A stretch of 64,000 nt of DNA from Candidatus Hydrogenedentales bacterium. GTDB lineage: Bacteria; Hydrogenedentota; Hydrogenedentia; Hydrogenedentales; SLHB01. Position numbers and translations under genes: made by a program. The stretch covers positions 11,212-75,211 of the forward strand of contig JBHEKO010000113.1 in NCBI GenBank assembly GCA_041859475.1, read 5' to 3'. Within the stretch, counting starts at the first letter, position 1. The number at the start of each line of letters is the position of its first letter. Below, piece by piece: positions 1 through 61,182 of this stretch. The notes under the pieces were generated by a model that did no database searches, was not told where the DNA came from, and was given only the letters and a program-made list of their open reading frames with translations.

Positions 1-327
1 GCCATAGAACCGGACGCGCGCGCGGACGCTGTCCCCGCCGCCCCCCGTCGCCCGGCAATCGATCAAAAACGGACGCGGCACACGCACGTCCCCGTCCAGC
101 GGTTGCTTGAACGCCTCCGCGAATGCCGGGTCCTGCGGCCCGCCCAGGCCATGCCCCAACAACCCCCGCAACACCGCGATGGGCTGTTCCGGCAACTCCG
201 GCGCCCAACGCGCCAACGCCAACGTCAGCCGCGCCCCCACTACAGGTAAATCAACGTCAAACAATGCCGTGCCCCCCGGCGATTCGCTGCGACTGCTAAA
301 TGTAATGCCGATTGATAAACCGGATGT

Positions 328-585
328 GTTTCAATGCCGTGCTACCCGGCGTTCCTTATCCATTTCTTTGTAGCGCCCGGCCTCCGTGCCGGGCGTCTTC
401 ACAACAGCCCCGTGCTACCCGGCGCGGTCCCAACACTAGGGTCTGGTTATGTCTATGCGTTCATTGTGGATGCAGTTTCAATGCCGTGCTACCCGGCGCG
501 GTCCCAACACAGGTCTTCCGGTCCTCAAGCATCTGCTGAAATCAGGCTAGTTTCAATGCCGTGCTACCCGGCGCGGTCCCAACAC
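328..585 (-). CRISPR. CRISPR array 1. It has 2 intact 36-nt repeats (475-510, 550-585) plus leader-distal degenerate or truncated copies (328-351, about 407-436). Spacers at 437-474 (38 nt) and 511-549 (39 nt).
   Basis: The direct repeat is GTTTCAATGCCGTGCTACCCGGCGCGGTCCCAACAC on the plus strand. Its minus-strand reading ends in ATTGAAAC, the canonical 8-nt crRNA 5' handle. It lies next to cas2 and RT-cas1. Repeat degeneracy is at the low-coordinate end, opposite the leader. Confidence 0.85.
373..396. other. Perfect 8-bp GC-rich stem (CGCCCGGC / GCCGGGCG, 374-381 with 388-395) and 6-nt loop, inside the 55-bp insert between two truncated repeats
   Basis: Read directly from the sequence. No U-tract follows on either strand. 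Confidence 0.4.
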
Positions 586-768
586 GACCCCTCTTGGGGG
601 CCCTTGTGGCGTAAGGAGTTAGCAAGTGTAAAACGCTTACGACCGTCAAGAGTTTCATTTACGTCCCTATTTTGCCCTATATCCCTGCGTAAGTCAAGTC
701 CTATCAATGGGTGCTAGCGACCGTTCCGTATTGGAGCGTTTTCGGGCTTTCTGAACGCCTCCGATGCT
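586..768 (-). promoter_or_regulatory. CRISPR leader 1. About 155 bp (587-740) are about 95% identical to 3149-3300.
   Basis: A conserved non-coding block lies immediately on the leader-proximal side of both arrays. It is relatively AT-rich. In the minus-strand sense it contains a conserved TTGACT -35-like hexamer, present in both copies. Confidence 0.55.
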
Positions 769-1053
769 TCATACGATATAGTATCCTCGTGTTGTCTGAA
801 TTAGCGTGTTGCCCTCGGTTTCGCATTGCTCGCGGCAGGTGGCGCATGCCGTGTACAGACGCAGGGAATCCTCGCCCTCTTTCATCTCTGCAGTGACGGC
901 TTCGCGCATCTGTTCCAGCGAGGCCTCGGTCACCCAGCATTCGAACACGCTCTTTTGGACGCGTACGCCGAAGCGCTCCATCACGCGCGCCACGCGCCGC
1001 AGCCGACGGGCGTCACGCACATCGTAACACGCAATCCAGAAGCGTTGCTCCAT
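769..1053 (-). CDS. cas2: CRISPR-associated endoribonuclease Cas2
   Basis: 94 aa. The N-terminus is MEQRFWIACYDVRDARRLRRVARVMERFGVRVQKSVFEC, the typical Cas2 pattern (YDV..R.R.....G.R.Q.SVF.C). It sits 6 nt downstream of cas1. Confidence 0.85.
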   Translation of the reverse strand: MEQRFWIACYDVRDARRLRRVARVMERFGVRVQKSVFECWVTEASLEQMREAVTAEMKEGEDSLRLYTACATCREQCETEGNTLIQTTRGYYIV

Positions 1054-1058
1054 GGGTT

Positions 1059-2980
1059 CTACTTTCGCGCAAAGGGAACGTAGGCGTCAACAGCCCCTTG
1101 GACAAATCGGCGGAAGCGCAAGGTCTGGAGGTCGAGCACGCGCCGCCAGTCCACCTCATGTTCGACGTCGGGATGATGGAGGAGTTCGGCCAGTTTGTCT
1201 TCGAAGGCCTCGATGAAACGGTGGCGTGCCTCGTCCTTCATCAGGCACGGTTGCGGCGTGCCCGGCGCGAGGTAGAAATCGCCCTCTTCAAACGCGCCGC
1301 GGTTGGCGACGTTGAGTACGAGGGCGTCAACCACCAGCGCGCGGAATTCCTCGAGCAGGTCGGAGACCAGGGCTTGGTGGCCGGAACGGGTCTCGTGAAA
1401 GAGCCCCACCGCTGGGTCCAGCCCGCGCGCGAGAACGTACCCGTGGATGTTGTGATAGAGCATGGTGTAGCCGAAACTCAGCAAGCTGTTGATGGGGTCG
1501 AGCGGGGGATGGCGATTGCGGTGGTTGAAGGCGAGTCCGTTCCGGAAGCAGAGGGCGTAGCCTTCGAAGTACGCTGCCGCCGCACTGCCCTCGATGCCGC
1601 GGAGAGTGTCGTCGTCCGAACAATCGTGGACGCGCGCGTGCAGCGCTTCGATGCGTTCAAGGACATCGGCCAACGCGACTTCCGGGTGGTTTCGGTGGTG
1701 GTGTGACAGAAACTGGTGGGAATTGCGCAGTTTGCGTCGACGATGGCCTTGGCGGTACCGAGGCGTTTTTGTTCATCGTCGGCCAGCCGGTACTGTTGCC
1801 GACGCACCATCGGCGCGCCATCGTCGTCCTGTAGCTGATGGAGCAAGCCGTAGTAACTGCCGCGCCCCGAAAATAGATGTATCGGAATGCCCTTGCGCAG
1901 GCAAAACCCCATGACGCCGGACGTGAGGTGCACCCGTCCGAAGGTGAAGATTTGGTCGATGTGGTGCGCGGGCAAATCAATAAGCGTGGTCCCGTCGCGG
2001 CTGACCACGAGTCGGCCCCCGTGACACGCGAGGATGCTGCCCTGTTGCTGGATATAGAGCGTGCGGAGCAAGGTGTAGGGGAGGCCTTGCGAAGGTGGAC
2101 GGTGGGGCGGGGGATGCGGCGGTCTGTAGTCGGCCTCGTAAGGGTGCGGCGCGTCGTAAATCAGTTCCGTGCCGATAAGCGTGGCCCCGAGGAACGGGAA
2201 TCCCGCATCGAAGGTCGAGACTGAGGTCTTGTCCGCCGCCAGACGCAGGCCTAGCGATGCAAGCGCGCGCTCGGCCTCGCCCCGGGCCTTCTGCGCGGTA
2301 GCGTCGTCGACACAGCATACAACGAAATCGTCCGCATACCGCACGAGTTTCCACCCGGCCTCGACCATCGACCGGTCGAACGGGGTCAGATACAGGTTGG
2401 CCAGCAGCGGCGATATCGGAAGGCCCTGGGGCAGCCCTTCGGTCAGCGAGATCAGGCGATCGCGATCGGCCAGCGGGGCGCTCAACCAAAGCCGGATGAG
2501 GTTCAAAACATCACGCGGCGCATGGGCCGCTTCGAGCATGGCGAACAAAGGCGCGTGCTGGACGGTATCGAAAAAACGCTCGACGTCTGCGCGAAGTGCA
2601 TGGGCAAACCCACGGTCGCGGTATGAACAGACCATCGCGAGGGCATCGCGCACGCCGACTCCGGCGCGGTAAGCAAATGAACAGGGATGCAGGAGCGGCG
2701 CGATCAGCGCTTGAAGCAGCATCGTCACCGCCGTCATGGCCACACGGTCGCGGACTGTTGCGATGACCAGCCGACGTTGTCCGCCGCTTTCCTTGGGGAC
2801 GTATACCACGCGATAGGCCTGCGGACGATAGGTGTTGGAAGCGAGGTCGTTGTAGAGCGCGTCAAGATTGGCTGAAAGGTCGCACTCGAACGTCCGCGGG
2901 CTTATACCATCCAACCCCGGCGCTTCGCCCCCTGTCCGCGCATGTTCCCACGCCTCCTCCAAGAGACTTCGGTCGAACAT
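1059..2980 (-). CDS. cas1: Reverse transcriptase-Cas1 fusion (RT-Cas1). It is split over two reading frames by an apparent -1 frameshift at a TTT homopolymer around 1731-1733.
   Basis: The N-terminal about 300 aa carry group-II-intron-like RT motifs (RVVYVPKESGGQRRL, PQGLPISPLLANLYL, VRYADDFVV). Downstream come Cas1 motifs (LYIQQQGSILACHGGRLVV ... AKAIVDA). These continue in the -1 frame as KLRNSHQFL...ADVLERIEALH...LLSFGYTMLYH to the stop at 1059. One extra A (plus-strand T) would restore the frame. Confidence 0.8.
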
Positions 2981-3035
2981 TTGTCCCCGCGCCTCCCCTC
3001 ATCCGTAGAAGAAAAACGCAAACACCTTTTGCCCC

Positions 3036-3147
3036 CAAAACATGGCGTGCTACCCGGCGCGGTCCCAACACGGGTGATGTTGGCGGCATGACCTATGGCC
3101 GCACTATCGAAGTTTCAATGCCGTGCTACCCGGCGCGGTCCCAACAC
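3036..3147 (-). CRISPR. CRISPR array 2. It has one intact repeat (3112-3147), one degenerate leader-distal repeat (3036-3071, 29/36 identity) and a single 40-nt spacer (3072-3111).
   Basis: Same repeat as array 1, same polarity, same degeneracy pattern. It lies immediately upstream (minus-strand sense) of the RT-cas1 start. Confidence 0.8.
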
Positions 3148-3300
3148 TCCCCCTCTTGGGGGTCCTTGCGGCGTAAGGAGTTAGCAAGTGTAAAACGCTT
3201 ACGACCGTCAAGAGTTTCATTTACGTCCCTATTTTGCCCCATATCCCTGCGTAAGTCAAGGCCTATCAAGGGGTGCTAGCGACCGTTCCGTATTGGAGCA
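3148..3300 (-). promoter_or_regulatory. CRISPR leader 2 (paralogous copy of leader 1)
   Basis: 3149-3300 align with 587-740 with about 7 mismatches. It occupies the same position relative to the first repeat. Confidence 0.55.
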
Positions 3301-17935: not shown

Positions 17936-19042
17936 CTATGTGAGGTCTGAGCGATCATAAAGTGCGAAAAGTTTCCGGTTCCATATTCTTGAGGAAAACT
18001 CTGTCTCGACTAGACGTCGTGCGTCGCTGGCCAAGCGCTCGCGGAGGGAATCATTTTGGGCGATGAGCAAGAGAGAATTGGCCAAGGTCTGCGGATCGCC
18101 TTCAGGGACGAGCAAGCCGGTCTTGTTGTGCAGAATAACGTCCGTTATTGCGCCCGCATCAGTACCCACGACGGCTAGTTTGTGAGACATCGCCTCGAGA
18201 ATAACATTGGGGACACCATCACGGTCACCATCGAGCGCGGTCACCGATGGCGCTACGAGCACATGTGATGTCCGGTAGCGAGCCGCGACAGCGCCGGGAG
18301 ACTGCCACCCTATCAACGCGACGTGCTCTTCCAACCGGAGGGTCGTAATCTGTGTTTCGAGCGCCTTGCGTTCTGGACCATCGCCGACTATGGCACAATG
18401 GAATGAGATCCTGCGTGCGCGAAGCAGCGCACAGGCGTCGATAAGAACCTTAAAACCTTTCTTGGGCACCAGACGCCCCACTGCGAGAATCTGATAAACA
18501 TCCCCCACCGAGTCGATGGTTGGAGAGACTTCTTCGGGCAAGTCAACACCATGTCGTATGAGTTCAAGTCGTGCTTCCGGATATCGCAGGGCCAAGTGGC
18601 GCTGTGCTGCGCTGTTGCAGACTGCGCAGAAAGTAGCGTGTTGCAGGACAACTCTTGGCGTGTCCTCTACGAAGACGTCGCGGGCATGGGCCGCCAAACT
18701 ATAAGGTTTATCGAGTATCTGCGCGAGGGCATAGGCCACTATGGCCGGCATGCCGAGAAAAGCCGCGTGGATATGGGTGGTGAGACCTGTATGGAGTCTG
18801 AGCGCCAGCGCCTGTGCAATGGCCCGTAGCGCGCGGATAGGATCATTGCGCAGGTTCTGGACTAATCGTAGAGTCGTTGTATTCGTAAAGGCTTTTGGCA
18901 AGCACTGGAGGAACGGTACGGAATCAAGCCCCACGACATCTATATGCATTCTGAGCTCTCGCAAACCGGCAATCTCTCTCGCGACAAAGGTTTCAGAGGG
19001 GACAGGATAACGGGCTACAATATAAAGAACTCGGCTAGCCAT
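17936..19042 (-). CDS. Glycosyltransferase family 1 (GT4-type)
   Basis: 368 aa. The C-terminal GT1 motif is DGVPNVILEAMSHKLAVVGTDAGAITDVILHNKTGLLVPEGDP. Confidence 0.65.
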   Translation of the reverse strand: MASRVLYIVARYPVPSETFVAREIAGLRELRMHIDVVGLDSVPFLQCLPKAFTNTTTLRLVQNLRNDPIRALRAIAQALALRLHTGLTTHIHAAFLGMPAIVAYALAQILDKPYSLAAHARDVFVEDTPRVVLQHATFCAVCNSAAQRHLALRYPEARLELIRHGVDLPEEVSPTIDSVGDVYQILAVGRLVPKKGFKVLIDACALLRARRISFHCAIVGDGPERKALETQITTLRLEEHVALIGWQSPGAVAARYRTSHVLVAPSVTALDGDRDGVPNVILEAMSHKLAVVGTDAGAITDVILHNKTGLLVPEGDPQTLANSLLLIAQNDSLRERLASDARRLVETEFSSRIWNRKLFALYDRSDLT

Positions 19043-20027
19043 GGATTCGGCTCTTCAATGTCTGCACGGCCTCGCGCGCCGCCAACAAACATCGTTCTCC
19101 TGTTGATCGATAGGCAGAGAACTCAACGTAGTCTTTTAGTACGCCACGGAACTTTTTCTTGAAACGAGTAATCGCCGGTATATTCGCTCCGCCAAGATCA
19201 AAATGCAACATCGTGCATGGCATCTCTTGCACGGCGCGCCACACCAGCAACGACGGCGCGCCTGTTTTCTTCAGTTGTTCATCAGACCCAGCGAGCGAAT
19301 AGTAGACTGAACGTTTATCCCACACAAAGAGGGCGCACGCGCAGGGGCTCCCGTCTGGCAACTTTGACACGTAGTAGCTTCCGATGCCGGATACGACGAG
19401 ATCGTCCAGAAGCTGGATGAGCGACGCCGTGTTGAAAGGTAATTCGCGTCCTTGACGCGAAAAGGTGTCTCTATACAGGGCATCAAATGCCTCGGCAGAT
19501 GTGTTTTTTTCGATCTGAATGCCTGCTTTTTCGGCTTTGCGGACCTTGTTGCGAGCCCCTGAGGCGATGCTGGACCAGAAGGCTGCAGAGTCCGTGATGT
19601 TATGGACGTAGGTGTGCCGTTTGCGAGTTGACCAATGGACCGGGAAAAGGGCCTCCGAAGCATTGGGGGGAAAGGCCAGCGTCGTAAGCGAGTGTTGTGC
19701 GCGTGTGGCATCGGCAAGTTTGGCGGCAAGGACTGCTTGCGAGTTTTCAAAGTTCTTTGCTACGACGATGCTGGCGTATGGGGTAGCAAAGGCGCGCCTG
19801 GCGATGGAGAACGGCCCTTTGCTTCGGATGGCGAGCGGCACGCCCGCGACCAGTTCGGTGTCCTGAAACGCGCCGTATACCAACCATGAATCTCTCGTCG
19901 CTCGACAGACCGCCGAAAGCCAGCGTGTATCGTGGTAGATCGTGCCTTCCGCCGAATCCGCTACCAAAGCGTTCCAGAATGGGAAATCCTCTGAGATTAA
20001 CGGGCGCACTTCCATTTGCTCAACCAT
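19035..20027 (-). CDS. FemAB-like (GNAT-fold) acyl/aminoacyltransferase, EPS-associated
   Basis: 330 aa. FemAB/BioF2-like family pattern (YHDTRWLSAV ... YYSLAGSDEQLKKTGAPSLLVWRAVQE ... FDLGG). The gene just upstream is a tandem paralogue. Confidence 0.5.
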   Translation of the reverse strand: MVEQMEVRPLISEDFPFWNALVADSAEGTIYHDTRWLSAVCRATRDSWLVYGAFQDTELVAGVPLAIRSKGPFSIARRAFATPYASIVVAKNFENSQAVLAAKLADATRAQHSLTTLAFPPNASEALFPVHWSTRKRHTYVHNITDSAAFWSSIASGARNKVRKAEKAGIQIEKNTSAEAFDALYRDTFSRQGRELPFNTASLIQLLDDLVVSGIGSYYVSKLPDGSPCACALFVWDKRSVYYSLAGSDEQLKKTGAPSLLVWRAVQEMPCTMLHFDLGGANIPAITRFKKKFRGVLKDYVEFSAYRSTGERCLLAAREAVQTLKSRIHG

Positions 20028-21030
20028 GTCTGCGATTACCCACGATCAAAGCCTTAAGCAACTCGCTTGCGGTTCGAGCGCGTTCGAGCGTTTCTATGAG
20101 CATGCGAGATACGGGTGACCGGTAAGCATGGCAATCAAGCACGGGATAGCTTTCGGGCGTGAACGTGCGTTTGAACTGCGCGATGCCTTCTGTCCCATAC
20201 CCCACGAGGTCGACTTCGTTGTAACGACCGTTCAGTTTTTCAAACGTCGTCCACCAAAGAAGAGACATCGCATTAGTCTTGCGCAATCGTGAATCATTAC
20301 CCGCCAACATGAAATAGGCCCGCTTCGAGTCATAGCCCACGACAAGAGCCGCCGCCGGTTCCTGCGATGCGGTTTTGGCCAGAAACACTTCGGCTAGGCC
20401 AGCCTCACACGCGTGTTGTATGGTGCTTTTCACAGAGTTCTCGCTTAGCGGCATCGGCGTACCCTGGCGCGTATAGGTCGATACGTACAGTGGATAGAAC
20501 GTCGAAGCGTCCGCCTTATCGACGACAATCCCGGCATCGCGTGCGCCCCGAATGTGTTGTCTGGCATGACGGTTCATCCGTTTCCACAACGCATCCAAGT
20601 CCGCGATCTGAACGACCGGCGTACGCTGCAACGTTGTAGACCATCCCTGCAACGGAACATCGGAAAAGCCATGAACGAGACGAACAAAGGGGTAACGTCG
20701 CAGCAATGCCGAAGACAATGCTTCTTGCGCCGACTCAGGCGCACCTGGGGCGAGAATGACGCCATTATACGCCGTAGCCCAGGGTTTGACCGCTCTCACG
20801 ATACCTAGCCGCGCTGTCCTTCGGACGATGGCCCCGGCAACGATATCTTCTCCGCGTTGCACGATATGCACCCGGATATCATGGCCCATGCCGTGTCTTA
20901 GCGCCTCTAGCCAGCCGCTCAAATGATAGACTGTCCCCAACGGCGCCCGCTCCACAAACCTATCCCACACATCTCGGGCATCGGCCCCTGAAAGCGAGCT
21001 CTCGGTCACGCTATAGTTGTCGGCGATCAT
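20020..21030 (-). CDS. FemAB-like acyl/aminoacyltransferase paralogue
   Basis: The start is placed at MIADNYSV (ATG 21030-21028), by alignment with the N-terminus of 19035-20027. VYHLSGWLEAL, YFMLAGNDSRLRKTNAMSLLWWTTFE, VDLVGYG. Confidence 0.5.
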   Translation of the reverse strand: MIADNYSVTESSLSGADARDVWDRFVERAPLGTVYHLSGWLEALRHGMGHDIRVHIVQRGEDIVAGAIVRRTARLGIVRAVKPWATAYNGVILAPGAPESAQEALSSALLRRYPFVRLVHGFSDVPLQGWSTTLQRTPVVQIADLDALWKRMNRHARQHIRGARDAGIVVDKADASTFYPLYVSTYTRQGTPMPLSENSVKSTIQHACEAGLAEVFLAKTASQEPAAALVVGYDSKRAYFMLAGNDSRLRKTNAMSLLWWTTFEKLNGRYNEVDLVGYGTEGIAQFKRTFTPESYPVLDCHAYRSPVSRMLIETLERARTASELLKALIVGNRRHG

Positions 21031-21073
21031 GTCGCGCCCTCTACGCAGAGATGCGTCCTCCCCATGTCTTCTA

Positions 21074-22006
21074 CTACTGCTCCGACGACGGGGACACGAG
21101 AAGTCCGAGCGCTGCCATAACGTCTTTGTCGAACGTCGCAAAATAGTGCGAGGCGAGATTTTCTGTGGTTGACTTGGACGTGCCGGCCCACAATGCACGA
21201 GCGCGTTGTGCCGCACTTGCGCCCAGAATATCGAGGTCGATAAGAAGCGCTGCTGCACAGCCTTTGCCTGTGAGTTCTTTTGTCGCTATGACGGGCGTCT
21301 GTTTGGAGATGGCGTATTTGCAGATGGCGTTGCCGAAACGTCCGGAGTTGGGGTCGTCTGGAACGAACAGAACGTCCAAGGAATGTTCTAGTTGCGCTTT
21401 GTCAATAGCCTTTTCGTAGTCGGAGTCGGTTCTGCATGCGCCTGCAGGAACTTTGACTGGGACAACGGATGCATCCGCCGTTGGCTTGTTTGCTCCAAGC
21501 GCGCTTAGCAGTTGCTGATTGGCGATGTTCCCGTCGGTGAAAAGGACGCCGAGGCTCTTTGTACCGGGTTTGAGCTTTAGTGCGGTTTGCCAGACTAGCG
21601 CCGTATCAGGCTCCGTGGACATAGCGCCGGGAAGTGCTTGAGCAGCGGCGTCGCGCGCAAAAAAGGCAACGAGGGGCAGTGAAGACGCTCGGGCGTGGAC
21701 AGCGGCATAAACTGCGTCGCCAAAGGTAAGAACGAGGTCTGGTGGACTGGTCTTCAATCCGTTAATGGCGCTTTTCAAGTCTGTGTCGCTACCCATTGCG
21801 TTCAGACGCTCGATTGCGCCTTGCTCGCCGTATTCTTTGAGTGTAGCGCTGAAAGCGGCGAGGACTTGTTCGTGCGACCGTGATGGTATCCATTCGATGG
21901 CAACTACGCGTTTGGACACCGTTTCCGCCTCTGCGAAAAAAAACCAGAGTAACAGCATTACGGCAAAGCATACACTAATGTTTGAAATCAGCCTGAATGT
22001 TGTCAA
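21074..22006 (-). CDS. ABC-transporter-type periplasmic substrate-binding-like protein (ABC_sub_bind-like)
   Basis: 310 aa. N-terminal TM/signal. Type-I periplasmic binding fold hints (VVAIEWIPSRSHEQVLAAF, LVLTFGDAVYAAV, VLFVPDDPNS). The domain call is tentative. Confidence 0.4.
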   Translation of the reverse strand: MTTFRLISNISVCFAVMLLLWFFFAEAETVSKRVVAIEWIPSRSHEQVLAAFSATLKEYGEQGAIERLNAMGSDTDLKSAINGLKTSPPDLVLTFGDAVYAAVHARASSLPLVAFFARDAAAQALPGAMSTEPDTALVWQTALKLKPGTKSLGVLFTDGNIANQQLLSALGANKPTADASVVPVKVPAGACRTDSDYEKAIDKAQLEHSLDVLFVPDDPNSGRFGNAICKYAISKQTPVIATKELTGKGCAAALLIDLDILGASAAQRARALWAGTSKSTTENLASHYFATFDKDVMAALGLLVSPSSEQ

Positions 22007-23105
22007 AATACACGCCCCCGCCGTTCGCTGTGAATAACCCTAACTGACCTCTCGGCTGGATAACGCATTGAGCTTGACAAACCAAAGTGTCGTCCAGAAA
22101 ACCTTGGATCGTTTGGCCATCCACGCGGTATCCCAACTGATACCATCGGTCAAATGCGAACCCCGCTATTGTAACCATCGCAAGAGGGGCTTGCGTATCG
22201 CTAGTTCGTTTCTCAATAGTCAGGATGCATCCAGTTTCGGATGCGTTCATAGATAATGCAAGGGTCTGGTCTGTTGCTGTAGAGAAAAATAGGAGACCCG
22301 CACTCGCGGGCCCCGAGAAGCGAATCGATACCTGGGCGTCATAGTCTGTCCAAATTGGAAAACCAGCCAATGCGGCTCCTCCGCTGGGATCCCACTGCGC
22401 CAGACAGGCGTTTACGCTGCTTTCGTCACGTCCAGGCTCGACAACTCGCCACTTTCCGCTCATGAATTGCCAACTACCTGTGTTGTCCGCATCACATCCT
22501 GCAAACCCGTCATAGAACCTCGTTATTTCACCGCCGAGTCCCTCAGGACAGTATGAAAGGTCATTTGTAATCTCCAGCTTATCCAACGCGATGCCGTCGC
22601 TATGATTGGAAAACGTCAGATAGTTGACGCCTTTATGCAGATTGACCGTCTGGCCCTTAACCCAGTGCCACTGGCCGAAGACGGCGTCATTTCCAAAGAC
22701 GGTTCGAGAACTTTGGTTGATGGAAAGGAAGACGGCATTAGTGCATCCGTCTTGCCAAAACATGCGCCCCCAGATACGGTAGCGTCCCCCGCTAGGCACG
22801 TCGATGCGATAGGTAACGCGGCCATTTCCCTTTCCGCGCCATCCCTGACCTGACCCGAGCGGAAGTTCGACGTATGCATCGCCGCTGGCTCCTGCGAGCG
22901 CGTGAGTCCGCTCAGCGCTTGGCTTATCGGAGAGTAGTGACGGAACAGTGGCGCTGGACGTTACATGGATAACCTGCATGGGTGCGACAATTTCGGCAAA
23001 GCTCTCTGATTCGATGATAAGCGCGCTAGGTTGCAGCGGTGCGATATCAAAAGCCATCGCAATCAGAACAAGTGTAAATATGGTTCCCCACAGTTTATTC
23101 ATCAT
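21975..23105 (-). CDS. Secreted protein with the CBM/jelly-roll-like module shared with 4473-6734
   Basis: Signal peptide MNKLWGTIFTLVLIAMAF. WHWVKGQTVNLHKGVNYLTF and FTANGGGVYFDNIQADFK. Confidence 0.45.
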   Translation of the reverse strand: MMNKLWGTIFTLVLIAMAFDIAPLQPSALIIESESFAEIVAPMQVIHVTSSATVPSLLSDKPSAERTHALAGASGDAYVELPLGSGQGWRGKGNGRVTYRIDVPSGGRYRIWGRMFWQDGCTNAVFLSINQSSRTVFGNDAVFGQWHWVKGQTVNLHKGVNYLTFSNHSDGIALDKLEITNDLSYCPEGLGGEITRFYDGFAGCDADNTGSWQFMSGKWRVVEPGRDESSVNACLAQWDPSGGAALAGFPIWTDYDAQVSIRFSGPASAGLLFFSTATDQTLALSMNASETGCILTIEKRTSDTQAPLAMVTIAGFAFDRWYQLGYRVDGQTIQGFLDDTLVCQAQCVIQPRGQLGLFTANGGGVYFDNIQADFKH

Positions 23106-24150
23106 TCGGCCTCGCAAAAGACAAGACAAAGCCATGTAACACTGCAAACGGCAGGAGTACTATTGCGGTCACTATTGGAGTAAGACAGGATGCTAGGAGG
23201 AATAATATCAACGCACAGCGAATCCTGGCGCATAAGGTATCTCCGTTTACCGCTAAGTGCCAGAGGGAGGTAAACCAATAGGTCACGGCGAACACACCGG
23301 CCAAACCAAATGAGGCTAGGAGCACCGCCAAACCAATCTGCGATCCTGGTTCCATCGTGTTTTCTTTGGGCAAGCCTTGATAGTATGGACCGATCTGAGA
23401 TTGGTAATTACCCGGTCCCAGCCCCCAAAGAGGGTGATCAGAGAGTACGCTAAGCGCCGCGTAGGTTTCAACGTACCGTTGAGGTATCGAAAAAGCATTC
23501 GCCCTCGTTGTTGCCTCAGCAGATCCACTCCAGGCGAGCCAAGTGGCCGCAAGAAGAGCAATCGTCGCGGTTGCGACAAGGCGGACCCTGGGCTCGCCTG
23601 GTTCAACTACGAGATGCACCCCGCATAAGCACAGGAGGGACGCCATCAGGCCGTACCGCGTGCCAAACACGTCTTGGAATAGTCCCGACGGCGCGAACGT
23701 CCATGCAGGAACACCCATAAACGCCAGGACTAACCCTACGCGTAAAGCCGCCCGAAGGTGAATCCGAGCTATCGGGTAACGTGCTATCCATCCGCTAATG
23801 CAGAGCGCGGCGGCGCAGTAGAGTACCACTTGCGCAAACTCCGGGATCGCCAAACGAATCGAAGAAGCGCCAAGCAAAGCAAATGCGACACAAAGAAGCC
23901 ACGGTAGCACAGGGCCCAACAGCGGAATGATGTGTCGCAGGTGGTGCTTTCCGAAGAATTGTGGCAAAAATAAACATATAGACAGCATGAGGAAGAGATC
24001 AGACAACGGCAATGGAAGTTCTCCAAATCTTCCCGCTGCAGGCGTAACCGCAATGGCAGCAAGAAACAACGTAACTCTTGCGTAGGTCAGCGGAGTGTCT
24101 TTTGTACTTGTCATGCTTTCGACGATCGTTTTTTGGATGTCGCCCCGCAT
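23095..24150 (-). CDS. O-antigen ligase/polymerase-like (Wzy_C domain) membrane protein
   Basis: 351 aa, polytopic. The Wzy_C signature is SDHPLWGLGPGNYQ. Confidence 0.55.
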   Translation of the reverse strand: MRGDIQKTIVESMTSTKDTPLTYARVTLFLAAIAVTPAAGRFGELPLPLSDLFLMLSICLFLPQFFGKHHLRHIIPLLGPVLPWLLCVAFALLGASSIRLAIPEFAQVVLYCAAALCISGWIARYPIARIHLRAALRVGLVLAFMGVPAWTFAPSGLFQDVFGTRYGLMASLLCLCGVHLVVEPGEPRVRLVATATIALLAATWLAWSGSAEATTRANAFSIPQRYVETYAALSVLSDHPLWGLGPGNYQSQIGPYYQGLPKENTMEPGSQIGLAVLLASFGLAGVFAVTYWFTSLWHLAVNGDTLCARIRCALILFLLASCLTPIVTAIVLLPFAVLHGFVLSFARPNDE

Positions 24151-24170
24151 TACGCTTCGTTCTCCTCTCC

Positions 24171-24776
24171 TTAGAGCATCGTTCGCATTGCGCCGCCAGT
24201 AATGGACGCGAGGATAATCGCGACACCGAGTAACCAGTTAGTACGTGGTGGAGCCTCGAACGAATGTCGACAGACAAACCCGGAGGTCAATACGAGCGCC
24301 AGATTTCTCGAAGCTTGATGGAACGTCCCCGGGTCGAGGTGGTCTCTGCCGCCGAGAAATCGGTAACCGCCCAATAGCAGTAATGCCAGGGCGAGAAGTG
24401 CGATAGTGCTGATTTTTAGGAGGCGCGTCGACGCGGGATTCCCTGGGCCTTGTGCGGACCAGGACGCCAGTGCGATAGCTCCCATCAAGAGAAGCGCCGG
24501 CCGCGCAACGGGAATCACGTCTCCGTTTAAAACGACCGGAATTTGAACTGTGAGATATGAGGCTGGAATGCTCCAATACGACAATACAAGCGTCCATATC
24601 ATAGGCCGCCACTCACGAAGCGAATGACATCTCGTCGCTAGAACCAATAGACCCAATCCCATTCCTGTCGTTGCGTCGAATAAGGCGCCATTTCTGATCG
24701 CGAAAATTGCCAATAGCCCTATTGCTGCGACGAAAATAAAGACCGTTGAGGAAATAACGCGACCTCTCAAGTCCAC
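24171..24776 (-). CDS. Polytopic membrane protein, possibly the detached N-terminal part of the Wzy-like gene downstream
   Basis: 201 aa with about 6 predicted TM helices. It ends 20 nt before the Wzy_C ORF in a different frame. Confidence 0.35.
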   Translation of the reverse strand: MDLRGRVISSTVFIFVAAIGLLAIFAIRNGALFDATTGMGLGLLVLATRCHSLREWRPMIWTLVLSYWSIPASYLTVQIPVVLNGDVIPVARPALLLMGAIALASWSAQGPGNPASTRLLKISTIALLALALLLLGGYRFLGGRDHLDPGTFHQASRNLALVLTSGFVCRHSFEAPPRTNWLLGVAIILASITGGAMRTML

Positions 24777-25942
24777 CTCCTTGCGCTCTGGGCAACTCGA
24801 AGATAGAATTCACTAAGATAGCTTAGTTGAGTTTCGAGTGAAAACTCTTCGCGTACGCGAGATTGGGCTGCTCGGCCAAGACGCGTAGCGAGGCTCGGGT
24901 CCACTATCAGGCGCATAACCGCCTCAGCAACGGCTTGGGGATCGTCTGGAGGCACGAGAAGACCGTTGACTCCGTCAATAATGACGTCAATGTTCCCGGG
25001 AACTCGAGTCGCCACAATTGGTTTCCCATGTGCCATCGCGTCTAGTAGGGAAAAAGCAAGTCCTTCATAGCGAGAGGTAGAAACATAAATGTCCAATTCT
25101 CGCAAGACATGGTCCATTTGATGTCCACGGTTCTCAGTGCAAAGCGCGATGTCAAGACCGGTCTGCTGCGCATATTCACGCAACGACGACTCAAGGGGAC
25201 CGTATCCATACAGGGCATAGCGCAGTTTTGGAAGTCGAGCCTGCAAGAGCGCGCAAGCGCGCAAAAAGGCCAAAGGGTCTTTTTGGTTGCAGAAACGACT
25301 GATAAAGCCGATGAGTGGTCGTTCATTCGAAAGACTTGCCTCTTTCGGCGTCGTGTCGGTCCATCCGACGGCGTTGGGAATGAGCTCGATGGATTTGTCC
25401 CGATAGCCAAGGCACTGCATTTCGTCCGCCTCACTCCGTGAAACGGCCATGACGGAGTGCGTGAACGGAACTTGCGTACGCTCCAGGGCGCGATAGAACC
25501 AACCTTTCAAACCACCCGTCAAAAAAGCGAATGCATGGGGGGAATAGACAATGGGAGGTCGTGCTCCAAAACAGAAAGCTAGTCGCGTGACTGCACCGGC
25601 CTTCGAACTGTGAGAATGGATTACATCGAAGGGGTATTCATGGAAGAGGCGGCGTAAGAATCGAATCCCCCGAAAGTCCTCGAAAAGCCTGATGTCGCGA
25701 GACATATCCAACGTCCAAACATCGATGCCCAGTTGTCGAAACTGCACGATGACTTTGTCAAACGTGGGATCTCTTTTCAGAGAACATAACAGCGAGTGCT
25801 TTTGTTCTTTTGACTGAAGACGTGGAAGCAGTGTCTCTACCCAACGTCGCGTCCCACCTTCAGTTGCCTCTAACACATGCAGCACGGACACAAGGGGTTT
25901 CATACAAATCGCGCCCTTAAATACGCTGCCAGAAACCGGCAC
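24767..25942 (-). CDS. Glycosyltransferase family 1
   Basis: 391 aa. EGLAFSLLDAMAHGKPIVATRVPGNIDVIIDGVNGLLVPPDDP. Confidence 0.65.
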   Translation of the reverse strand: MPVSGSVFKGAICMKPLVSVLHVLEATEGGTRRWVETLLPRLQSKEQKHSLLCSLKRDPTFDKVIVQFRQLGIDVWTLDMSRDIRLFEDFRGIRFLRRLFHEYPFDVIHSHSSKAGAVTRLAFCFGARPPIVYSPHAFAFLTGGLKGWFYRALERTQVPFTHSVMAVSRSEADEMQCLGYRDKSIELIPNAVGWTDTTPKEASLSNERPLIGFISRFCNQKDPLAFLRACALLQARLPKLRYALYGYGPLESSLREYAQQTGLDIALCTENRGHQMDHVLRELDIYVSTSRYEGLAFSLLDAMAHGKPIVATRVPGNIDVIIDGVNGLLVPPDDPQAVAEAVMRLIVDPSLATRLGRAAQSRVREEFSLETQLSYLSEFYLRVAQSARRWT

Positions 25943-27468
25943 TCTCTTACGCCGAACAAATGAGCCACGATGAGGTAAGTCATCAAAATTACCATTCCGC
26001 CGAAGCAGATTGTGCCGAGGCGCGTGATAAACCCGCCTGTGCCAAGTACGGGAAGTGCTTCTGTGACACTTGCGGTGCCCGCAATTCCCGCAAAAAGTGT
26101 GGCAGGAACGAGTCTAAGCAGTTCTCTCAGTTCAAGCTGACGTACGGTTACCTTGCCGCGTCGATAAACGCTCCACCCTAGTGCTATTACCTTAAGTCCG
26201 CGCGCCAAAACTATGGCCGCCGGAATCGCGACAATTCCGAAGTATTGAACACACGAAATAATCAACGCGATTTTGGCCAAAACACAAAAACTTCCGATCA
26301 GGAATGGGGGCCACAGATCTTCTCTGGAAAAGAAATGCTGCATAAGGAGTTGTTCGATGACATCAAAGCACATACCCGGTGCCAACCAAAAGAGAATGAG
26401 GGCGACAAGTCGGGTAGATTCCGCGTCGAACATCCCACGCTGATATACCAGCGCTACAATGGGCTCGGCTAGAATGACCATCATTAAGACCATCGGCAGA
26501 AATAGGAACAACATCCCACGAATCCCGCGCCCCAGGAGTCCGGCCATGCTCGAATGGTCGTGTTGGGAATTTAACTCGGCGAAGAATGTAAATAGAACCG
26601 TCGAACAAGCAACTGAGATGACGAGCAAAGGGAGATTGGTGAGCTTTCGGGCAAAGCTCAGCGCTGAGACCACCCCCTCGCCCAAATTACTGCATGCGGC
26701 GTTCTCGACAAGCCCTCCCGCTTGGGCAAAAATAGTCCCGAGAATTGGAGCAGTCATCAGGAGCAGGGAGCGTCGAAACTCCTCACTTGCGAAGACCAGT
26801 TTGAGACGCGGGCGAGACCAAAGACGGCCTATCGTAAACGAGTGGAACAGTAACGCCATGAAAAGTGATGCGATTGTACCCACGGCGAGGGCCTTTGCGC
26901 CGAGGGGATGTGCAAGTAATACGATCACACCCAACAAGGTCATCTTCATAGCTAGGTCCGTCAGAGGCGGTATGACGAAAAGGCGACGCGCCGTCATAAC
27001 GCAGTTCGACAATGGGAGCAGTGAGAAGACCACGGCGCAAGGAAGCATCAGACGCAACAAATCAACACACAGTGCGTGGGTAGAGGGAGCAAATCCCGGC
27101 GCAAGCGTATGGATGACTGTATCCGCGCATAAAAAAACGATCAACCCGAAAGCAGCGGTTAACGCGGCGAATAATATCGTCCACGAGAGCAGGTGCGAAG
27201 AAACCTCGTCCCACTGTTCTTCCTGGTTCTTGCGTACAAACAAAGGCCCTAAGACCGGTTTCACCAAACTGGAAGCCGCGAAAAATGCTATCATGACAAA
27301 GTTCACGGCCATTAGGTAAGCGTCGTAATCATGCCTAGTGCCAAAGAAAGCGGCTGCCACGACTTTCTCTACAAACCCGCCGACCCGGACAAGTGCAGTA
27401 ATACTCGCAACGGTAGCAACATAGCCCAGCACAAGACGAGGACTGTACAAAGACTTTGTAAGAGTCAT
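25900..27468 (-). CDS. Polysaccharide biosynthesis protein / Wzx-like MOP-family flippase
   Basis: 522 aa with about 12-14 hydrophobic helices. It is embedded among glycosyltransferases. The N-terminus resembles Wzx/MurJ-type exporters. Confidence 0.55.
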   Translation of the reverse strand: MTLTKSLYSPRLVLGYVATVASITALVRVGGFVEKVVAAAFFGTRHDYDAYLMAVNFVMIAFFAASSLVKPVLGPLFVRKNQEEQWDEVSSHLLSWTILFAALTAAFGLIVFLCADTVIHTLAPGFAPSTHALCVDLLRLMLPCAVVFSLLPLSNCVMTARRLFVIPPLTDLAMKMTLLGVIVLLAHPLGAKALAVGTIASLFMALLFHSFTIGRLWSRPRLKLVFASEEFRRSLLLMTAPILGTIFAQAGGLVENAACSNLGEGVVSALSFARKLTNLPLLVISVACSTVLFTFFAELNSQHDHSSMAGLLGRGIRGMLFLFLPMVLMMVILAEPIVALVYQRGMFDAESTRLVALILFWLAPGMCFDVIEQLLMQHFFSREDLWPPFLIGSFCVLAKIALIISCVQYFGIVAIPAAIVLARGLKVIALGWSVYRRGKVTVRQLELRELLRLVPATLFAGIAGTASVTEALPVLGTGGFITRLGTICFGGMVILMTYLIVAHLFGVRECRFLAAYLRARFV

Positions 27469-28643
27469 GATGCCCCCCGTTGATCGACGTTTCGCACAGA
27501 CGCCGTCGGCTGACGCGCAAGAGCCTGCTCGTAGGTCGTGAGCAACGCTTCAGCATGACGGTCCCATGTAAAACGTGCAGCGTGTCGAAGTCCTCGCGCG
27601 ATCAAATCTGTCCGAAACTTGGGCTGCGAGAGAAGATTGTCTAACATCTTTGCCCAGGCCGATATATCGTCAGGCTCCAGCAGCATCGCGGCATTCCCGC
27701 ATATCTCTCGCAAAGCTCCGCATGACGAAACCAACGTCGGCGTGCCACACGCCATCGCTTCGAGGGGGGGGAAACCAAAGCCTTCATTCAACGACGGATA
27801 TAACACGGCAACCGCCCGCTGATAGAGGGCCAAAAGGGTGTCGTCATCAATATAGCCGGTTCGTATGACGGCTCGTTCAAGGTTGAGCCGCTGGATGAGG
27901 CGTTGCAGGTGCGCAACATCGTTACCCTGCGCGCCCGCGAGAACGAGCAGTAGATCAGGATAGCCGTTCGCGCGCAAACGCGCGAGGGCCTCTATCGCCA
28001 GGCCTAGGTTTTTCTTTTTTTCCATGCGCCCAACGCAGAGTACGTAGCGAGCGGAATTCGGTAGTCCAAGATCCCCAAAACCTGAAGGAACCGATTCGGA
28101 AGCTAGGGGGCAAAATCCTGAGGAAACACCCAACGGGATAACGTGAATGCGTGATGGCTCGATGTTGACGAAGGCAAGCAAGCGTTCTCTTACATAACGG
28201 CATGGTACGACAACTCGAGCGGAAGCGCGCACGCTGCGGCGCAGAGCCAAGCGATAATGCAGAAAATTGGAACGAGTCGTAAGGGTCGGGGTGTCGAGCG
28301 CAATGGTATCGTAAACGGTCAATACCGTGGGCGACCCAAGGTTGGGAGAAGCAACGTACCCGGTAGCGTGATAGACGTCCGGCAACTGGCGGCGCATGCT
28401 CATAGGAAGCGCCATCTGCTGCCAGACAATTCGCCCTAGCCGCCCTGCGCCTGCCAAAGACGAAACCGCCACTTCCTGTTCCGCCGCGCCCTCAGGTAGC
28501 GTGGCGAGGCACGATGCGTTGGTATAAATAGTCATACATTTCGGCGGAAGGCGACGCAACAAGGCCGCCAACATCTCGCGGACGGCAACTCCGACACCGG
28601 TCGGTGCTGTGCCCGTCAACATATACTCAAAACCAATTCTCAT
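27465..28643 (-). CDS. Glycosyltransferase family 1
   Basis: 392 aa. NEGFGFPPLEAMACGTPTLVSSCGALREICGNAAMLLEPDD. Confidence 0.6.
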   Translation of the reverse strand: MRIGFEYMLTGTAPTGVGVAVREMLAALLRRLPPKCMTIYTNASCLATLPEGAAEQEVAVSSLAGAGRLGRIVWQQMALPMSMRRQLPDVYHATGYVASPNLGSPTVLTVYDTIALDTPTLTTRSNFLHYRLALRRSVRASARVVVPCRYVRERLLAFVNIEPSRIHVIPLGVSSGFCPLASESVPSGFGDLGLPNSARYVLCVGRMEKKKNLGLAIEALARLRANGYPDLLLVLAGAQGNDVAHLQRLIQRLNLERAVIRTGYIDDDTLLALYQRAVAVLYPSLNEGFGFPPLEAMACGTPTLVSSCGALREICGNAAMLLEPDDISAWAKMLDNLLSQPKFRTDLIARGLRHAARFTWDRHAEALLTTYEQALARQPTASVRNVDQRGAS

Positions 28644-29818
28644 GACAGCAGTTCTCGGTAAAGCTGGAGCACTTCCTCCGCGTGCCGCTCCGGAGTGAAC
28701 CGTTCGCTAGCAGTCGCGCCCGATGCCGTAAGACTCCGCATGAGCGCCTGGTCAGAAAGAAGCCGCGCCAAGGTCCTGGCCAGACTGTCAACATCACCTG
28801 CGCGAAAACACAGACCTGTATCCTTATGCGCAACAAGCTCCGCCGGTCCGCCTATATCCGAGACTACTACCGGCAAGCCCATTCGCCACGCTTCAACGAT
28901 TACCCGCCCAAACGGCTCATTATCCGATGGTAAAACTAGCACATCGGCGCAAGCGTAAAGTGCATCCATATCGTCATGTTGCCCAAGAAACCAGACTTTT
29001 CCCCTCAACCTCGATTCCGAGGCAAACCTTTCAAGCTTGCTCAGATATGCCTTAGCACATCCCCACCAATCGCAGCCAGCAAGAAGAACGCGAATATCGT
29101 ATCCCTGTTCGACAAGTCGCGATGCCGCACCAAGCAGCAAGTCATGCCTTTTCCAGGGCACTATCTGGGCAGCCATCAAGAGGACAAGGCTGTTTCCCGG
29201 GATGCCAAGTCTACTTCGCGTCTCCTCTCGAAGTATCGGTCTCTTGCCTGGCACCGGACGAAACGCCACGCCATTTGGAATGACCCGCACTTTACCAGCG
29301 CAAAAAGGCGACTGCCGCAACAACGCCTGCGCAACGAATCTAGACGGCGCGACAATCGCAGACGCGGCGGATGCCAAGCCACCTTCCAGAAATCGACGCC
29401 GCGGGAAGTCACGCATATGCCAAACACAAGGAACTCCACGCCCTATCGCCGCCACGGGCACAAACAAAAAGCCTTTCCAACCATTCCCGTGCAATATTGG
29501 ATCGCTATCTTGCGCAATACTCCTGCGTAATCGATACGTACTGCGACACAGCGCAGCAATATCGCTGCCGCGCGCCCAAGAGTTTGACTTGCCCTCGGGT
29601 TTCATAGTCGGCAAAAGCGTCACGGGAACACCGCATGCTTCTGTCTGACGTGATAGCGCACCATCTACTGGGCACGCCAAACGTACTTGCGCCCCCCCAC
29701 TAGCGCGCAATGCACACGCCAACTCCAACAGACTCCTTTCCGCCCCGCCCAGGTTACCAGTGTGCGAGACCAACGTTACCGTTGGAAAATAGCTAAAACC
29801 TTTTGTATGCATGCTCAT
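28640..29818 (-). CDS. Glycosyltransferase family 1
   Basis: 392 aa. NEPFGRVIVEAWRMGLPVVVSDIGGPAELVAHKDTGLCFRAGD. Confidence 0.65.
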   Translation of the reverse strand: MSMHTKGFSYFPTVTLVSHTGNLGGAERSLLELACALRASGGAQVRLACPVDGALSRQTEACGVPVTLLPTMKPEGKSNSWARGSDIAALCRSTYRLRRSIAQDSDPILHGNGWKGFLFVPVAAIGRGVPCVWHMRDFPRRRFLEGGLASAASAIVAPSRFVAQALLRQSPFCAGKVRVIPNGVAFRPVPGKRPILREETRSRLGIPGNSLVLLMAAQIVPWKRHDLLLGAASRLVEQGYDIRVLLAGCDWWGCAKAYLSKLERFASESRLRGKVWFLGQHDDMDALYACADVLVLPSDNEPFGRVIVEAWRMGLPVVVSDIGGPAELVAHKDTGLCFRAGDVDSLARTLARLLSDQALMRSLTASGATASERFTPERHAEEVLQLYRELLS

Positions 29819-33596: not shown

Positions 33597-34061
33597 TCAC
33601 CTTCTCTTTAAAAAATACTCGTCGCTTCCTTTTTGCAGTCGAATGCCGTCTTTTTCGACGGATACGACTAGAAAAACGCCCAACGTCTCGCCAGTGCCAA
33701 CGGAAAAAGCGCGATTCAATTTCATGTCTTTTATGAAGGCGCGCAACTGTCCGTTTCGCGAGGATATCCCCATCAGTTGATAGCGCCCAGCCTCATTGAC
33801 CACTTTTCCCTCTGCGGAGTGATAGGTTCGAAAAATCGCTTTGCCTGTGGTAGCCGAAGAAACCTGTTCCATTGAAAGAGTCTCGAGGCGTTCCAGCGAC
33901 GTCACATCTTGCGCAATCTCCTGTGCGGCCTCGGCGCGGTTGGGTACCCAAGTTTTCTGCGTTAGCGTCAAGATGGAAAACCCCACGCTCAATAAGGTGT
34001 TCACAATGAGCACCCCGAGCAATAGTTTTTTTAGTCTTAGCTCCAAACGCCTAATACCCAC
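33597..34061 (-). CDS. PilP/GspC-like inner-membrane-anchored secretin-interacting protein
   Basis: 154 aa. N-terminal TM. Position between the PilO-like gene and the secretin. Confidence 0.35.
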   Translation of the reverse strand: MGIRRLELRLKKLLLGVLIVNTLLSVGFSILTLTQKTWVPNRAEAAQEIAQDVTSLERLETLSMEQVSSATTGKAIFRTYHSAEGKVVNEAGRYQLMGISSRNGQLRAFIKDMKLNRAFSVGTGETLGVFLVVSVEKDGIRLQKGSDEYFLKRR

Positions 34062-39138: not shown

Positions 39139-39314
39139 AGACGTTCCTCAGAGTATTGGCACCTAGTTCAAGCGGCTTGCCCCCAAAACTGTCCCACACA
39201 AACATGACGATTATTGCGTACACTCTCTTGTAGCACTGGGAATGGAGGAATGTCAATTAGACAATCCTCACCTATTTTACCCATAAACATCCCCCGCATA
39301 GCAGCGCGTTACCC

Positions 39315-40538: not shown

Positions 40539-40552
40539 GCGCCGTTTCTCCC

Positions 40553-61082: not shown

Positions 61083-61182
61083 GTAGCGCTCCTTCCCGGG
61101 ACTTGACTTCCTCCCCCACACAGAGCGTGTATGTGCTCACGCGGCGGCACGGGGTCGCCGTGAAAACGCAAAGAGGAGAGCG

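What the first reader, a model, noticed from the sequence alone, without database searches (positions are those of the whole stretch)
1700..1760. RT-Cas1 is interrupted by a -1 frameshift at a 3-nt homopolymer
The RT and N-terminal Cas1 motifs read in one frame up to AKAIVDA. The remaining Cas1 (KLRNSHQFLSHHHRNHPEVALADVLERIEALH...) reads in the -1 frame. A single extra T in the plus-strand TTT run at 1731-1733 (GCAAAC to GCAAAAC on the coding strand) restores a continuous ORF of about 640 aa. This is either a sequencing or assembly indel, a programmed or tolerated frameshift, or recent inactivation of the adaptation enzyme. Inactivation would fit the near-empty arrays.
Basis: seen in the sequence. 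Interest (0 to 1): 0.55.

Follow-up and report, generated by a model that had tools for sequence, protein, structure and literature searches.

The report
Frameshifted RT-Cas1 gene, recently broken
A CRISPR spacer-acquisition gene (a reverse transcriptase fused to Cas1) has lost one base, which cuts off its integrase active site; this looks like an ordinary, recent gene inactivation and not a new mechanism.

Summary
On the minus strand, an RT-Cas1 gene (2980 to 1059) reads in one frame through ...AKAIVDA (A416, 1735-1733). It continues as Cas1 (LRNSHQF... to the stop at 1061-1059) only in the -1 frame. Adding one base gives a 640-aa protein that matches Pfam RVT_1 and Cas_Cas1 end to end.

An 88%-identical ortholog (GCA_022706145.1, JAKJDE010000328.1) reads GACGCGAAACTG where the window reads GACGC-AAACTG, and its frame is intact. 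Twenty-nine more distant homologs aligned here are single proteins of about 640-690 aa.

The same broken sequence appears in three independent SRA-run assemblies that I checked base by base. This makes an assembler artefact unlikely.

The out-of-frame part shows dN/dS of 0.04 against the ortholog, with no stops or further indels. The lesion is therefore young.

There is no slippery heptamer and no significant downstream RNA structure, and the shift is not conserved. Programmed recoding is therefore unlikely.

All four conserved Cas1 active-site residues lie downstream of the shift. The RT domain and cas2 are intact.

Small arrays also occur next to an intact relative, so they are weak support for the inactivation reading. 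Frameshifted RT-Cas1 genes are already on record. Interest is low.

The parts
1478..2980 (-). ORF as encoded (500 aa). It comprises the RT domain, the Cas1 N-terminal domain (residues 1-416), and an 84-residue out-of-frame tail.
   Evidence: This exact 500-aa product is on record as P0001 in NCBI and Logan.
2180..2800 (-). Reverse-transcriptase domain (residues 61-267). The YADD active-site motif lies at 2327-2338.
   Evidence: Pfam RVT_1 E 5e-29. R214, A216, D217 and D218 are invariant in alignment A1.
1733..2059 (-). Cas1 N-terminal part still in frame with the RT (residues 308-416).
   Evidence: Pfam Cas_Cas1 profile positions 1-122.
1730..1736 (-). Frameshift site. The coding strand reads GC-AAAC, with one base missing compared with GCGAAAC in the ortholog. 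The plus-strand TTT is at 1731-1733.
1059..1732 (-). Rest of Cas1 in the -1 frame (residues 417-640 plus the stop). It carries the conserved active-site residues E464 (1590-1592), H529 (1395-1397), D541 (1359-1361) and E544 (1350-1352).
   Evidence: dN/dS is 0.038 against L004.
769..1053 (-). cas2, intact (94 aa).
   Evidence: Pfam CRISPR_Cas2 E 7e-21 and TIGR01573.
258..585 (-). CRISPR array 1, with 5 repeats and 4 spacers. The two leader-proximal repeats are perfect (GTGTTGGGACCGCGCCGGGTAGCACGGCATTGAAAC). The three distal repeats are degenerate.
586..737 (-). Leader of array 1.
   Evidence: Part of a 189-nt direct repeat with 3111-3299, 96% identical.
3036..3147 (-). CRISPR array 2, with 2 repeats (one degenerate) and 1 spacer.
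3148..3299 (-). Leader of array 2, a second copy of the array 1 leader.

Best explanation
This is a genuine, evolutionarily recent one-base deletion in the RT-Cas1 gene of a type III-style CRISPR adaptation module. The host is probably a Hydrogenedentota bacterium.

Translation from the ATG at 2980 gives a 500-aa protein. It keeps the reverse-transcriptase domain and the Cas1 N-terminal domain, then runs into 84 nonsense residues. It lacks the whole C-terminal catalytic domain of Cas1, including E464, H529, D541 and E544.

By inference, the cell can no longer integrate new spacers through this enzyme, although cas2, the leaders and the existing spacers remain.

Shown here: the deletion, its absence in the ortholog, its presence in several read sets, and the intact state of everything else. 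Inferred here: loss of function, and that the sequence is not a systematic sequencing error.
For: 1. Ortholog L004 (88% nt identity, 355 of 374 residues identical) is continuous across the site. It reads GACGCGAAACTG where the window reads GACGC-AAACTG.
2. Twenty-nine homologs of 38-58% identity are single proteins of about 640-690 aa. The alignment is ungapped at the site and K417 is nearly invariant. The PDB Cas6-RT-Cas1 structure 7KFT and stand-alone Cas1 structures align straight through the site.
3. Logan contigs from three different SRA runs (SRR30207021, SRR30164231, SRR30207031) cover the site. They are 100% identical across the genes, with no gap. In all, 6 Logan contigs carry this cas2, and 3 of them carry the 500-aa ORF.
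4. No intact allele of this strain turned up among the hits of a search of 5.8 billion protein clusters.
5. The lesion is recent. In the out-of-frame part there are 52 synonymous and 8 nonsynonymous differences to L004. That gives omega 0.038, against 0.094 upstream and 0.104 for cas2. There are no stops or extra indels in 223 codons. The Poisson upper bound of 14.4, set against roughly 107 expected for a fully neutral branch, puts the lesion in the last ~13% or less of this lineage's branch.
6. No other broken gene was noticed in the 64 kb. Stop-to-stop ORFs tile 93% of the window, and the neighbouring genes scanned give Pfam matches with no family split across adjacent ORFs.
7. Frameshifted RT-Cas1 genes have been reported before (PMC6753606).
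Against: I could not see reads, the sequencing platform or run metadata. The three SRA runs may come from the same project as the deposited assembly. A reproducible, context-specific sequencing error is therefore not formally excluded.

Perfect preservation of the downstream frame is also what a sequencing error or a still-translated gene would give.

Loss of function is inferred from the position of conserved residues. It has not been measured.
Confidence: 0.8

Rival explanations
1. The missing base is a sequencing or assembly error. The real gene would then be an intact 640-aa RT-Cas1.
For: The downstream frame is perfectly preserved: omega 0.038, no stops and no second lesion. This is just what an error in an intact gene would look like. 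The genome appears to be a metagenome-assembled contig.
Against: The same sequence was assembled independently from at least three SRA runs by a different, k-mer-based pipeline. Those contigs end at the duplicated leader, as expected for accurate reads. The site is at most a 3/4-base run and possibly not a homopolymer at all. No other broken gene was noticed in 64 kb. No intact allele of this strain is among the hits of the protein search.
Confidence: 0.12
2. The frameshift is tolerated or used. One version is low-level -1 ribosomal slippage at GCA AAC that yields some full-length RT-Cas1. The other is that the C-terminal catalytic domain is translated separately (TTG at 1673, 204 aa) and works in trans with the RT-Cas1N protein.
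For: The -1 frame is open from 1772 onward. A TTG with a weak GGAAG upstream exists at 1673. Gene callers predict a 204-aa or 134-aa Cas1 fragment. The downstream part shows no decay.
Against: There is no X XXY YYZ heptamer at the only place where homology allows the shift, between A416 and L418. An A3 run is far too short for transcriptional slippage. The 126-nt fold spanning the site and the sequence downstream of it is not significant: z = -1.6, with 14 of 200 shuffles folding as well. The shift is absent from the 88% ortholog and from all 29 aligned homologs, so it is not a conserved feature. The 204-aa ORF overlaps the upstream ORF by 195 nt and lacks the first conserved helix. From my own knowledge, no natural Cas1 split between its two domains has been described.
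Confidence: 0.04

Closest known systems
RT-Cas1 fusion proteins of type III CRISPR-Cas adaptation modules. Examples are Marinomonas mediterranea RT-Cas1 and Thiomicrospira Cas6-RT-Cas1 (PDB 7KFT/7KFU).
   Same: It has a group II intron-like RT domain with YADD fused upstream of a complete Cas1 domain. cas2 lies immediately downstream. Co-directional arrays have repeats ending in ATTGAAAC. Relatives sit beside Cas10, RAMP, Csx19 and Cmr3 genes.
   Different: There is no N-terminal Cas6 domain (640 aa against 984 aa in 7KFT). Identity to any intact protein in the searched database is at most 58%; the partial ortholog L004 is about 95% identical over 374 residues. The gene is broken by a 1-nt deletion, so the Cas1 catalytic domain is out of frame. 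No effector genes lie within the 64-kb window.
Frameshifted or lost RT-Cas1 genes in type VI-A/RT loci: Drancourtella sp. An57 and Eubacterium rectale strains (Toro et al. 2019, PMC6753606).
   Same: Strain-level frameshift mutations disrupt an RT-Cas1 fusion while the rest of the CRISPR locus persists.
   Different: Those lesions lie in the RT domain and in type VI-A loci of Clostridia. Here the lesion is in the Cas1 domain of a locus whose relatives are type III.
Programmed -1 ribosomal frameshifting (for example dnaX, or IS3-family transposases).
   Same: Two overlapping frames together encode one conserved protein, and the downstream part is in the -1 frame.
   Different: There is no slippery heptamer, no significant stimulatory structure, and no conservation of the shift in orthologs.

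Membership tests
RT-Cas1 fusion (CRISPR adaptation) | Reverse-transcriptase domain with the catalytic YxDD motif | tested here: met
   Pfam RVT_1 E 5e-29, residues 61-267. YADD at residues 215-218; A216, D217 and D218 are invariant in A1.
RT-Cas1 fusion (CRISPR adaptation) | Complete Cas1 domain with conserved metal-binding residues (equivalents of E. coli E141, H208 and D221, by established knowledge) | tested here: met
   After adding one base, PF01867 matches positions 1-282 of 283 at E 2e-89 and TIGR00287 scores 267 bits (cutoff 71.7). E464, H529, D541 and E544 are invariant columns. All four sit in the -1 frame.
RT-Cas1 fusion (CRISPR adaptation) | RT and the whole of Cas1 encoded in one uninterrupted reading frame | tested here: not met
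   The frame breaks after A416, and the ORF as encoded holds only Cas1 profile positions 1-122. The feature is met in ortholog L004 across the site and in 80 of 84 related loci.
RT-Cas1 fusion (CRISPR adaptation) | cas2 adjacent, with a CRISPR array and leader nearby | tested here: met
   cas2 lies at 769-1053. Arrays lie at 258-585 and 3036-3147 with duplicated leaders.
RT-Cas1 fusion (CRISPR adaptation) | Association with a type III (or VI-A) effector module | tested here: inconclusive
   No cas effector genes were found in the window ORFs that I scanned. The left-edge ORF 1-255 has no hit, and the sequence beyond base 1 is not available. Relatives L085, L086 and L088 have Cas10, RAMP, Csx19, Cmr3 and Cas6 genes.
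RT-Cas1 fusion (CRISPR adaptation) | Spacer acquisition from RNA by reverse transcription | not testable with these tools
   This needs experiments.
Programmed -1 ribosomal frameshift | Slippery heptamer X XXY YYZ at the shift site | tested here: not met
   The site reads C GCA AAC, and neither tRNA can re-pair in the -1 frame (read directly from the sequence). Homology confines the shift to A416-L418.
Programmed -1 ribosomal frameshift | Stimulatory RNA structure downstream | tested here: not met
   MFE is -38.6 against a shuffle mean of -33.0, z = -1.61, and 14 of 200 shuffles fold as well.
Programmed -1 ribosomal frameshift | The frameshift is conserved among orthologs | tested here: not met
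   The 88% ortholog and all 29 aligned homologs are in one frame.

The most novel reading that the evidence does not exclude
The break is functional rather than destructive. In this reading, the RT-Cas1N product and a separately initiated Cas1 catalytic domain (or rare -1 slippage) together give a down-tuned or regulated adaptation enzyme. That would explain why the downstream frame shows no decay at all.
Probability: 0.03. Interest if true: 0.6.

Novelty: new member of a known kind. Interest (0 to 1): 0.12.

Why it matters
It matters little beyond annotation. The gene should be labelled a frameshifted RT-Cas1 pseudogene and not as two proteins (databases hold the 500-aa product plus a 134-aa or 204-aa Cas1 fragment).

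It adds one more case of a CRISPR locus that keeps its arrays and cas2 after losing its integrase, caught very soon after the event. Anyone surveying the family can take the protein from this report.

Tried and rejected
- I looked for either allele in JGI metagenomes with a pattern that allows 0 or 1 base at the site, and for close protein relatives there. Both found nothing.
- The genome-contig scan returned only relatives of at most 54% identity.
- I tried to identify the truncated ORF at the left edge (1-255, minus strand) as a cas gene. Pfam at E up to 10, a homolog search, tblastn against 88 loci and BLASTP against a Cas10 all found nothing.
- The deposited 76.9-kb NCBI contig could not be retrieved for its extra flank.
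- Paper searches for the assembly and run accessions, and for RT-Cas1 in Hydrogenedentes, found nothing.
- No spacer matches anything in the window.
- I considered and rejected a legitimately split Cas1, because the ortholog is continuous.
- I rejected -1 slippage at the nearby A5 run (CAAAAAC, 1767-1773). It would replace the conserved RLGTAKAIVDA with unrelated residues.
- I rejected the idea that the small arrays are a consequence of this frameshift, on timing and because L088 is intact with 5+5 repeats.

Full report
**What is in the sequence**

The gene lies on the minus strand. From the ATG at 2980, one frame is open for 500 codons down to 1478. Its first 416 residues contain a reverse-transcriptase domain (Pfam RVT_1, residues 61-267, E 5e-29) and the first 122 profile positions of Cas1 (PF01867). 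After ...GTAKAIVDA the frame continues for 84 residues that look like nothing (NCAIPTSFCHTTTETTRK...).

The -1 frame is open from 1772. It reads KLRNSHQFLSHHHRNHPEVALADVLERIEALH... down to the stop at 1059-1061. That stretch carries Cas1 profile positions 130-282. The distance from start to stop is 1922 nt, one base short of a multiple of three.

With one base added, the 640-aa product matches Cas_Cas1 over 1-282 of 283 positions in one piece (E 2e-89). It also matches TIGR00287 cas1 at 267 bits against a cutoff of 71.7. It aligns straight through the site to the solved Cas6-RT-Cas1 of Thiomicrospira (7KFT, E 1e-58) and to stand-alone Cas1 structures.

**Surroundings**

cas2 (769-1053, minus strand) follows directly and is intact. 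Two small arrays flank the genes, and both are co-directional with them.

- Array 1 (258-585) has five repeats and four spacers. Only the two leader-proximal repeats are perfect (GTGTTGGGACCGCGCCGGGTAGCACGGCATTGAAAC).
- Array 2 (3036-3147) has two repeats and one spacer.
- Each array is preceded by a copy of the same ~150-nt leader. The leaders form part of a 189-nt direct repeat that is 96% identical.

The ORFs I scanned in the rest of the 64 kb hold no cas effector genes. The window carries exopolysaccharide and type II secretion / type IV pilus clusters, plus a GC-rich stretch with a terminase and an integrase at the far end. The best named relative of the secretion ATPase is a Candidatus Hydrogenedentes protein at 72% identity. 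The nearest intact RT-Cas1 proteins (55-58%) also include Hydrogenedentes entries.

**Comparison with relatives**

The decisive result came from looking up cas2. A 94-aa Cas2 in the same 90% cluster sits on NCBI contig JAKJDE010000328.1 (GCA_022706145.1; locus L004). That contig is 88% identical in DNA to the window over 1479 nt. It encodes the last 373 residues of RT-Cas1 in one frame. At the site it reads GTC GAC GCG AAA CTG CGC (V D A K L R), where the window reads GTCGACGC-AAACTGCGC.

Twenty-nine further homologs (38-58% identity, about 640-690 aa) align without a gap at this point, and K417 is nearly invariant. Of 84 related loci fetched, 80 have the gene as a single ORF. The four exceptions are:

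- L046, which has a TAA nonsense codon;
- L072, where the RT and Cas1 parts lie 1.6 kb apart;
- L049, which is naturally unfused;
- L020, which simply ends early at the C-terminus.

Cas1 therefore does not legitimately stop and restart here, and the shift is not a family feature.

Which base was lost cannot be told. The ortholog's GCGAAAC becomes the window's GCAAAC by loss of the G alone. An A4-to-A3 contraction from GCAAAAC is equally consistent.

**Real mutation or error**

The exact 500-aa product and the Cas1 fragments are on record from NCBI and from Logan assemblies of public sequencing runs. I checked three Logan contigs from three different runs base by base: SRR30207021, SRR30164231 and SRR30207031. 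All cover the site. All are 100% identical to the window across the genes, without a gap. The only four mismatches in L001 lie at its end, in the duplicated leader.

These contigs were built by a different, k-mer-based pipeline, and they end at the repeated leader or repeat sequences, as accurate reads would give. No intact allele of this strain is among the hits of the protein search. No other gene in the window looks broken. Stop-to-stop ORFs tile 93% of it, and the neighbouring genes I scanned give Pfam matches with no family split across adjacent ORFs.

I could not see reads or run metadata, so a reproducible platform-specific error stays possible. I put it at about 0.12.

**Age of the lesion**

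Against L004, the part now out of frame has 52 synonymous and 8 nonsynonymous differences. That gives dS 0.42 and omega 0.038. For comparison, omega is 0.094 for the in-frame Cas1 part and 0.104 for cas2. There are no stops and no further indels in 223 codons.

If this lineage's half of the divergence had been neutral for a fraction f of its length, about 107 x f extra nonsynonymous changes would be expected. The 95% Poisson bound on 8 observed is 14.4. So f is below roughly 0.13, by inference. The lesion is young.

This also bears on the arrays. Three repeats of array 1 carry 5 to 13 substitutions each, which is far more damage than the shifted gene shows. An intact relative (L088) also has only 5+5 repeats, while others have 30 and 69. 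The small arrays are therefore not a consequence of this frameshift. At most they hint at low adaptation activity beforehand.

**Programmed recoding**

Homology fixes the shift between A416 and L418, within C GCA AAC TG. This is not an X XXY YYZ heptamer. tRNA-Ala cannot re-pair on CGC, and a run of three A is far too short for transcriptional slippage. These points come from reading the sequence and from established knowledge of -1 frameshift sites.

The 126 nt spanning the site and the sequence downstream of it fold no better than shuffles: z = -1.61, with 14 of 200 shuffles as good. The shift is also absent from the ortholog.

A separately translated C-terminal piece (TTG at 1673, 204 aa) is conceivable. 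It would overlap the upstream ORF by 195 nt and would lack the first conserved helix. From my own knowledge, no natural Cas1 split between its two domains has been described. I give all such readings together about 0.04.

**Consequence**

The invariant Cas1 residues are E464, H529, D541 and E544. By established knowledge, they correspond to the metal-binding residues of E. coli Cas1 (E141, H208, D221) and of P. aeruginosa Cas1. All four lie downstream of the shift. The encoded protein keeps an apparently intact RT (YADD at 2327-2338) and the Cas1 N-terminal domain, but it has no integrase active site.

The inferred result is loss of spacer integration by this module. cas2, the leaders and the five existing spacers remain. 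This is inference from sequence and has not been measured.

**Comparison with what is known, and novelty**

The repaired gene is a Cas6-less member of the RT-Cas1 fusions. Its relatives sit next to type III genes: Cas10 palm, RAMPs, Csx19, Cmr3 and a PF10040 Cas6. It meets the domain, motif, cas2 and array criteria. It fails only the single-frame criterion. The link to an effector could not be tested, because the window ends 255 nt beyond array 1.

Frameshift mutations in RT-Cas1 genes, and loss of the fusion or of the whole adaptation module in sister strains, were described by Toro et al. 2019 (PMC6753606). The finding is a correctly spotted and correctly repaired pseudogene of a known kind. 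Its value lies in annotation, not in mechanism.

**Verdict**

- Real, recent one-base deletion that inactivates the Cas1 part of RT-Cas1: 0.80.
- Sequencing error: 0.12.
- Recoding or a functional split: 0.04.
- Interest: 0.12.

Noticed in passing
window 549-737 and 3111-3299: The last repeat plus a ~150-nt leader is duplicated (189 nt, 96% identical). Both arrays flanking RT-Cas1-cas2 therefore have the same leader. Relatives L085 and L088 also have arrays on both sides of the adaptation genes.
   Followed up: partly
window 258-436: Three consecutive distal repeats of array 1 are heavily degenerate. The oldest (258-293) begins GTCGCAG..., like the repeat of ortholog L004 (GTCGCAGAGGTGAGCCGGGTAGCACGGCATTGAAAC). 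It does not resemble the window's current repeat, which begins GTGTTGG... This may be a trace of an older repeat form.
   Followed up: no
window 1-3300 versus 3300-58000: The CRISPR adaptation island has 60-64% GC, and the adjacent chromosomal genes have about 50-55%. The jump falls right after the second leader. This suggests the module arrived by horizontal transfer.
   Followed up: no
window 59013-62485: A GC-rich stretch (63-66%) encodes a large terminase subunit (59013-60581, minus strand) and a tyrosine integrase (61376-62485, plus strand). It may be a prophage or another mobile element. None of the five spacers matches it.
   Followed up: partly
window 1-255 (minus strand): An ORF starts just beyond array 1 and runs off the window edge (VDLPVVGARLTLALARW...RPFLIDCRATGGG...). 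It has no Pfam hit and no homolog in the 5.8-billion-cluster search. It could be the first gene of an effector or cas6 module, or it could be a non-coding GC-rich ORF.
   Followed up: partly
L046 10001-12040 (Ideonella sp. MAG2, PTEU01000001.1): The RT-Cas1 homolog carries an in-frame TAA at codon 436 of the match, inside the Cas1 N-terminal domain (GFLSQLGR*YGRYEG). This is another apparently inactivated RT-Cas1.
   Followed up: partly
L072 7707-11002 (CAZKAZ010000015.1): The RT part and the Cas1 part of the homolog lie 1.6 kb apart in different frames, with no N in between. This may be an insertion into the fusion gene, or two separate genes.
   Followed up: no
L004 1478-1863: The ortholog has about 385 nt between cas2 and the leader that the window lacks. 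A 173-aa ORF without Pfam hits was called on the opposite strand there.
   Followed up: no
window 17936-30885 and 33597-42076: There is a long minus-strand exopolysaccharide cluster (glycosyltransferases, FemAB-like acyltransferases, a Wzy-like ligase, a MurJ-type flippase). A secretin / T2SS-T4P cluster (secretin, PilN, GspK-like, GspF, GspE) follows. All of the genes I scanned appear intact.
   Followed up: partly
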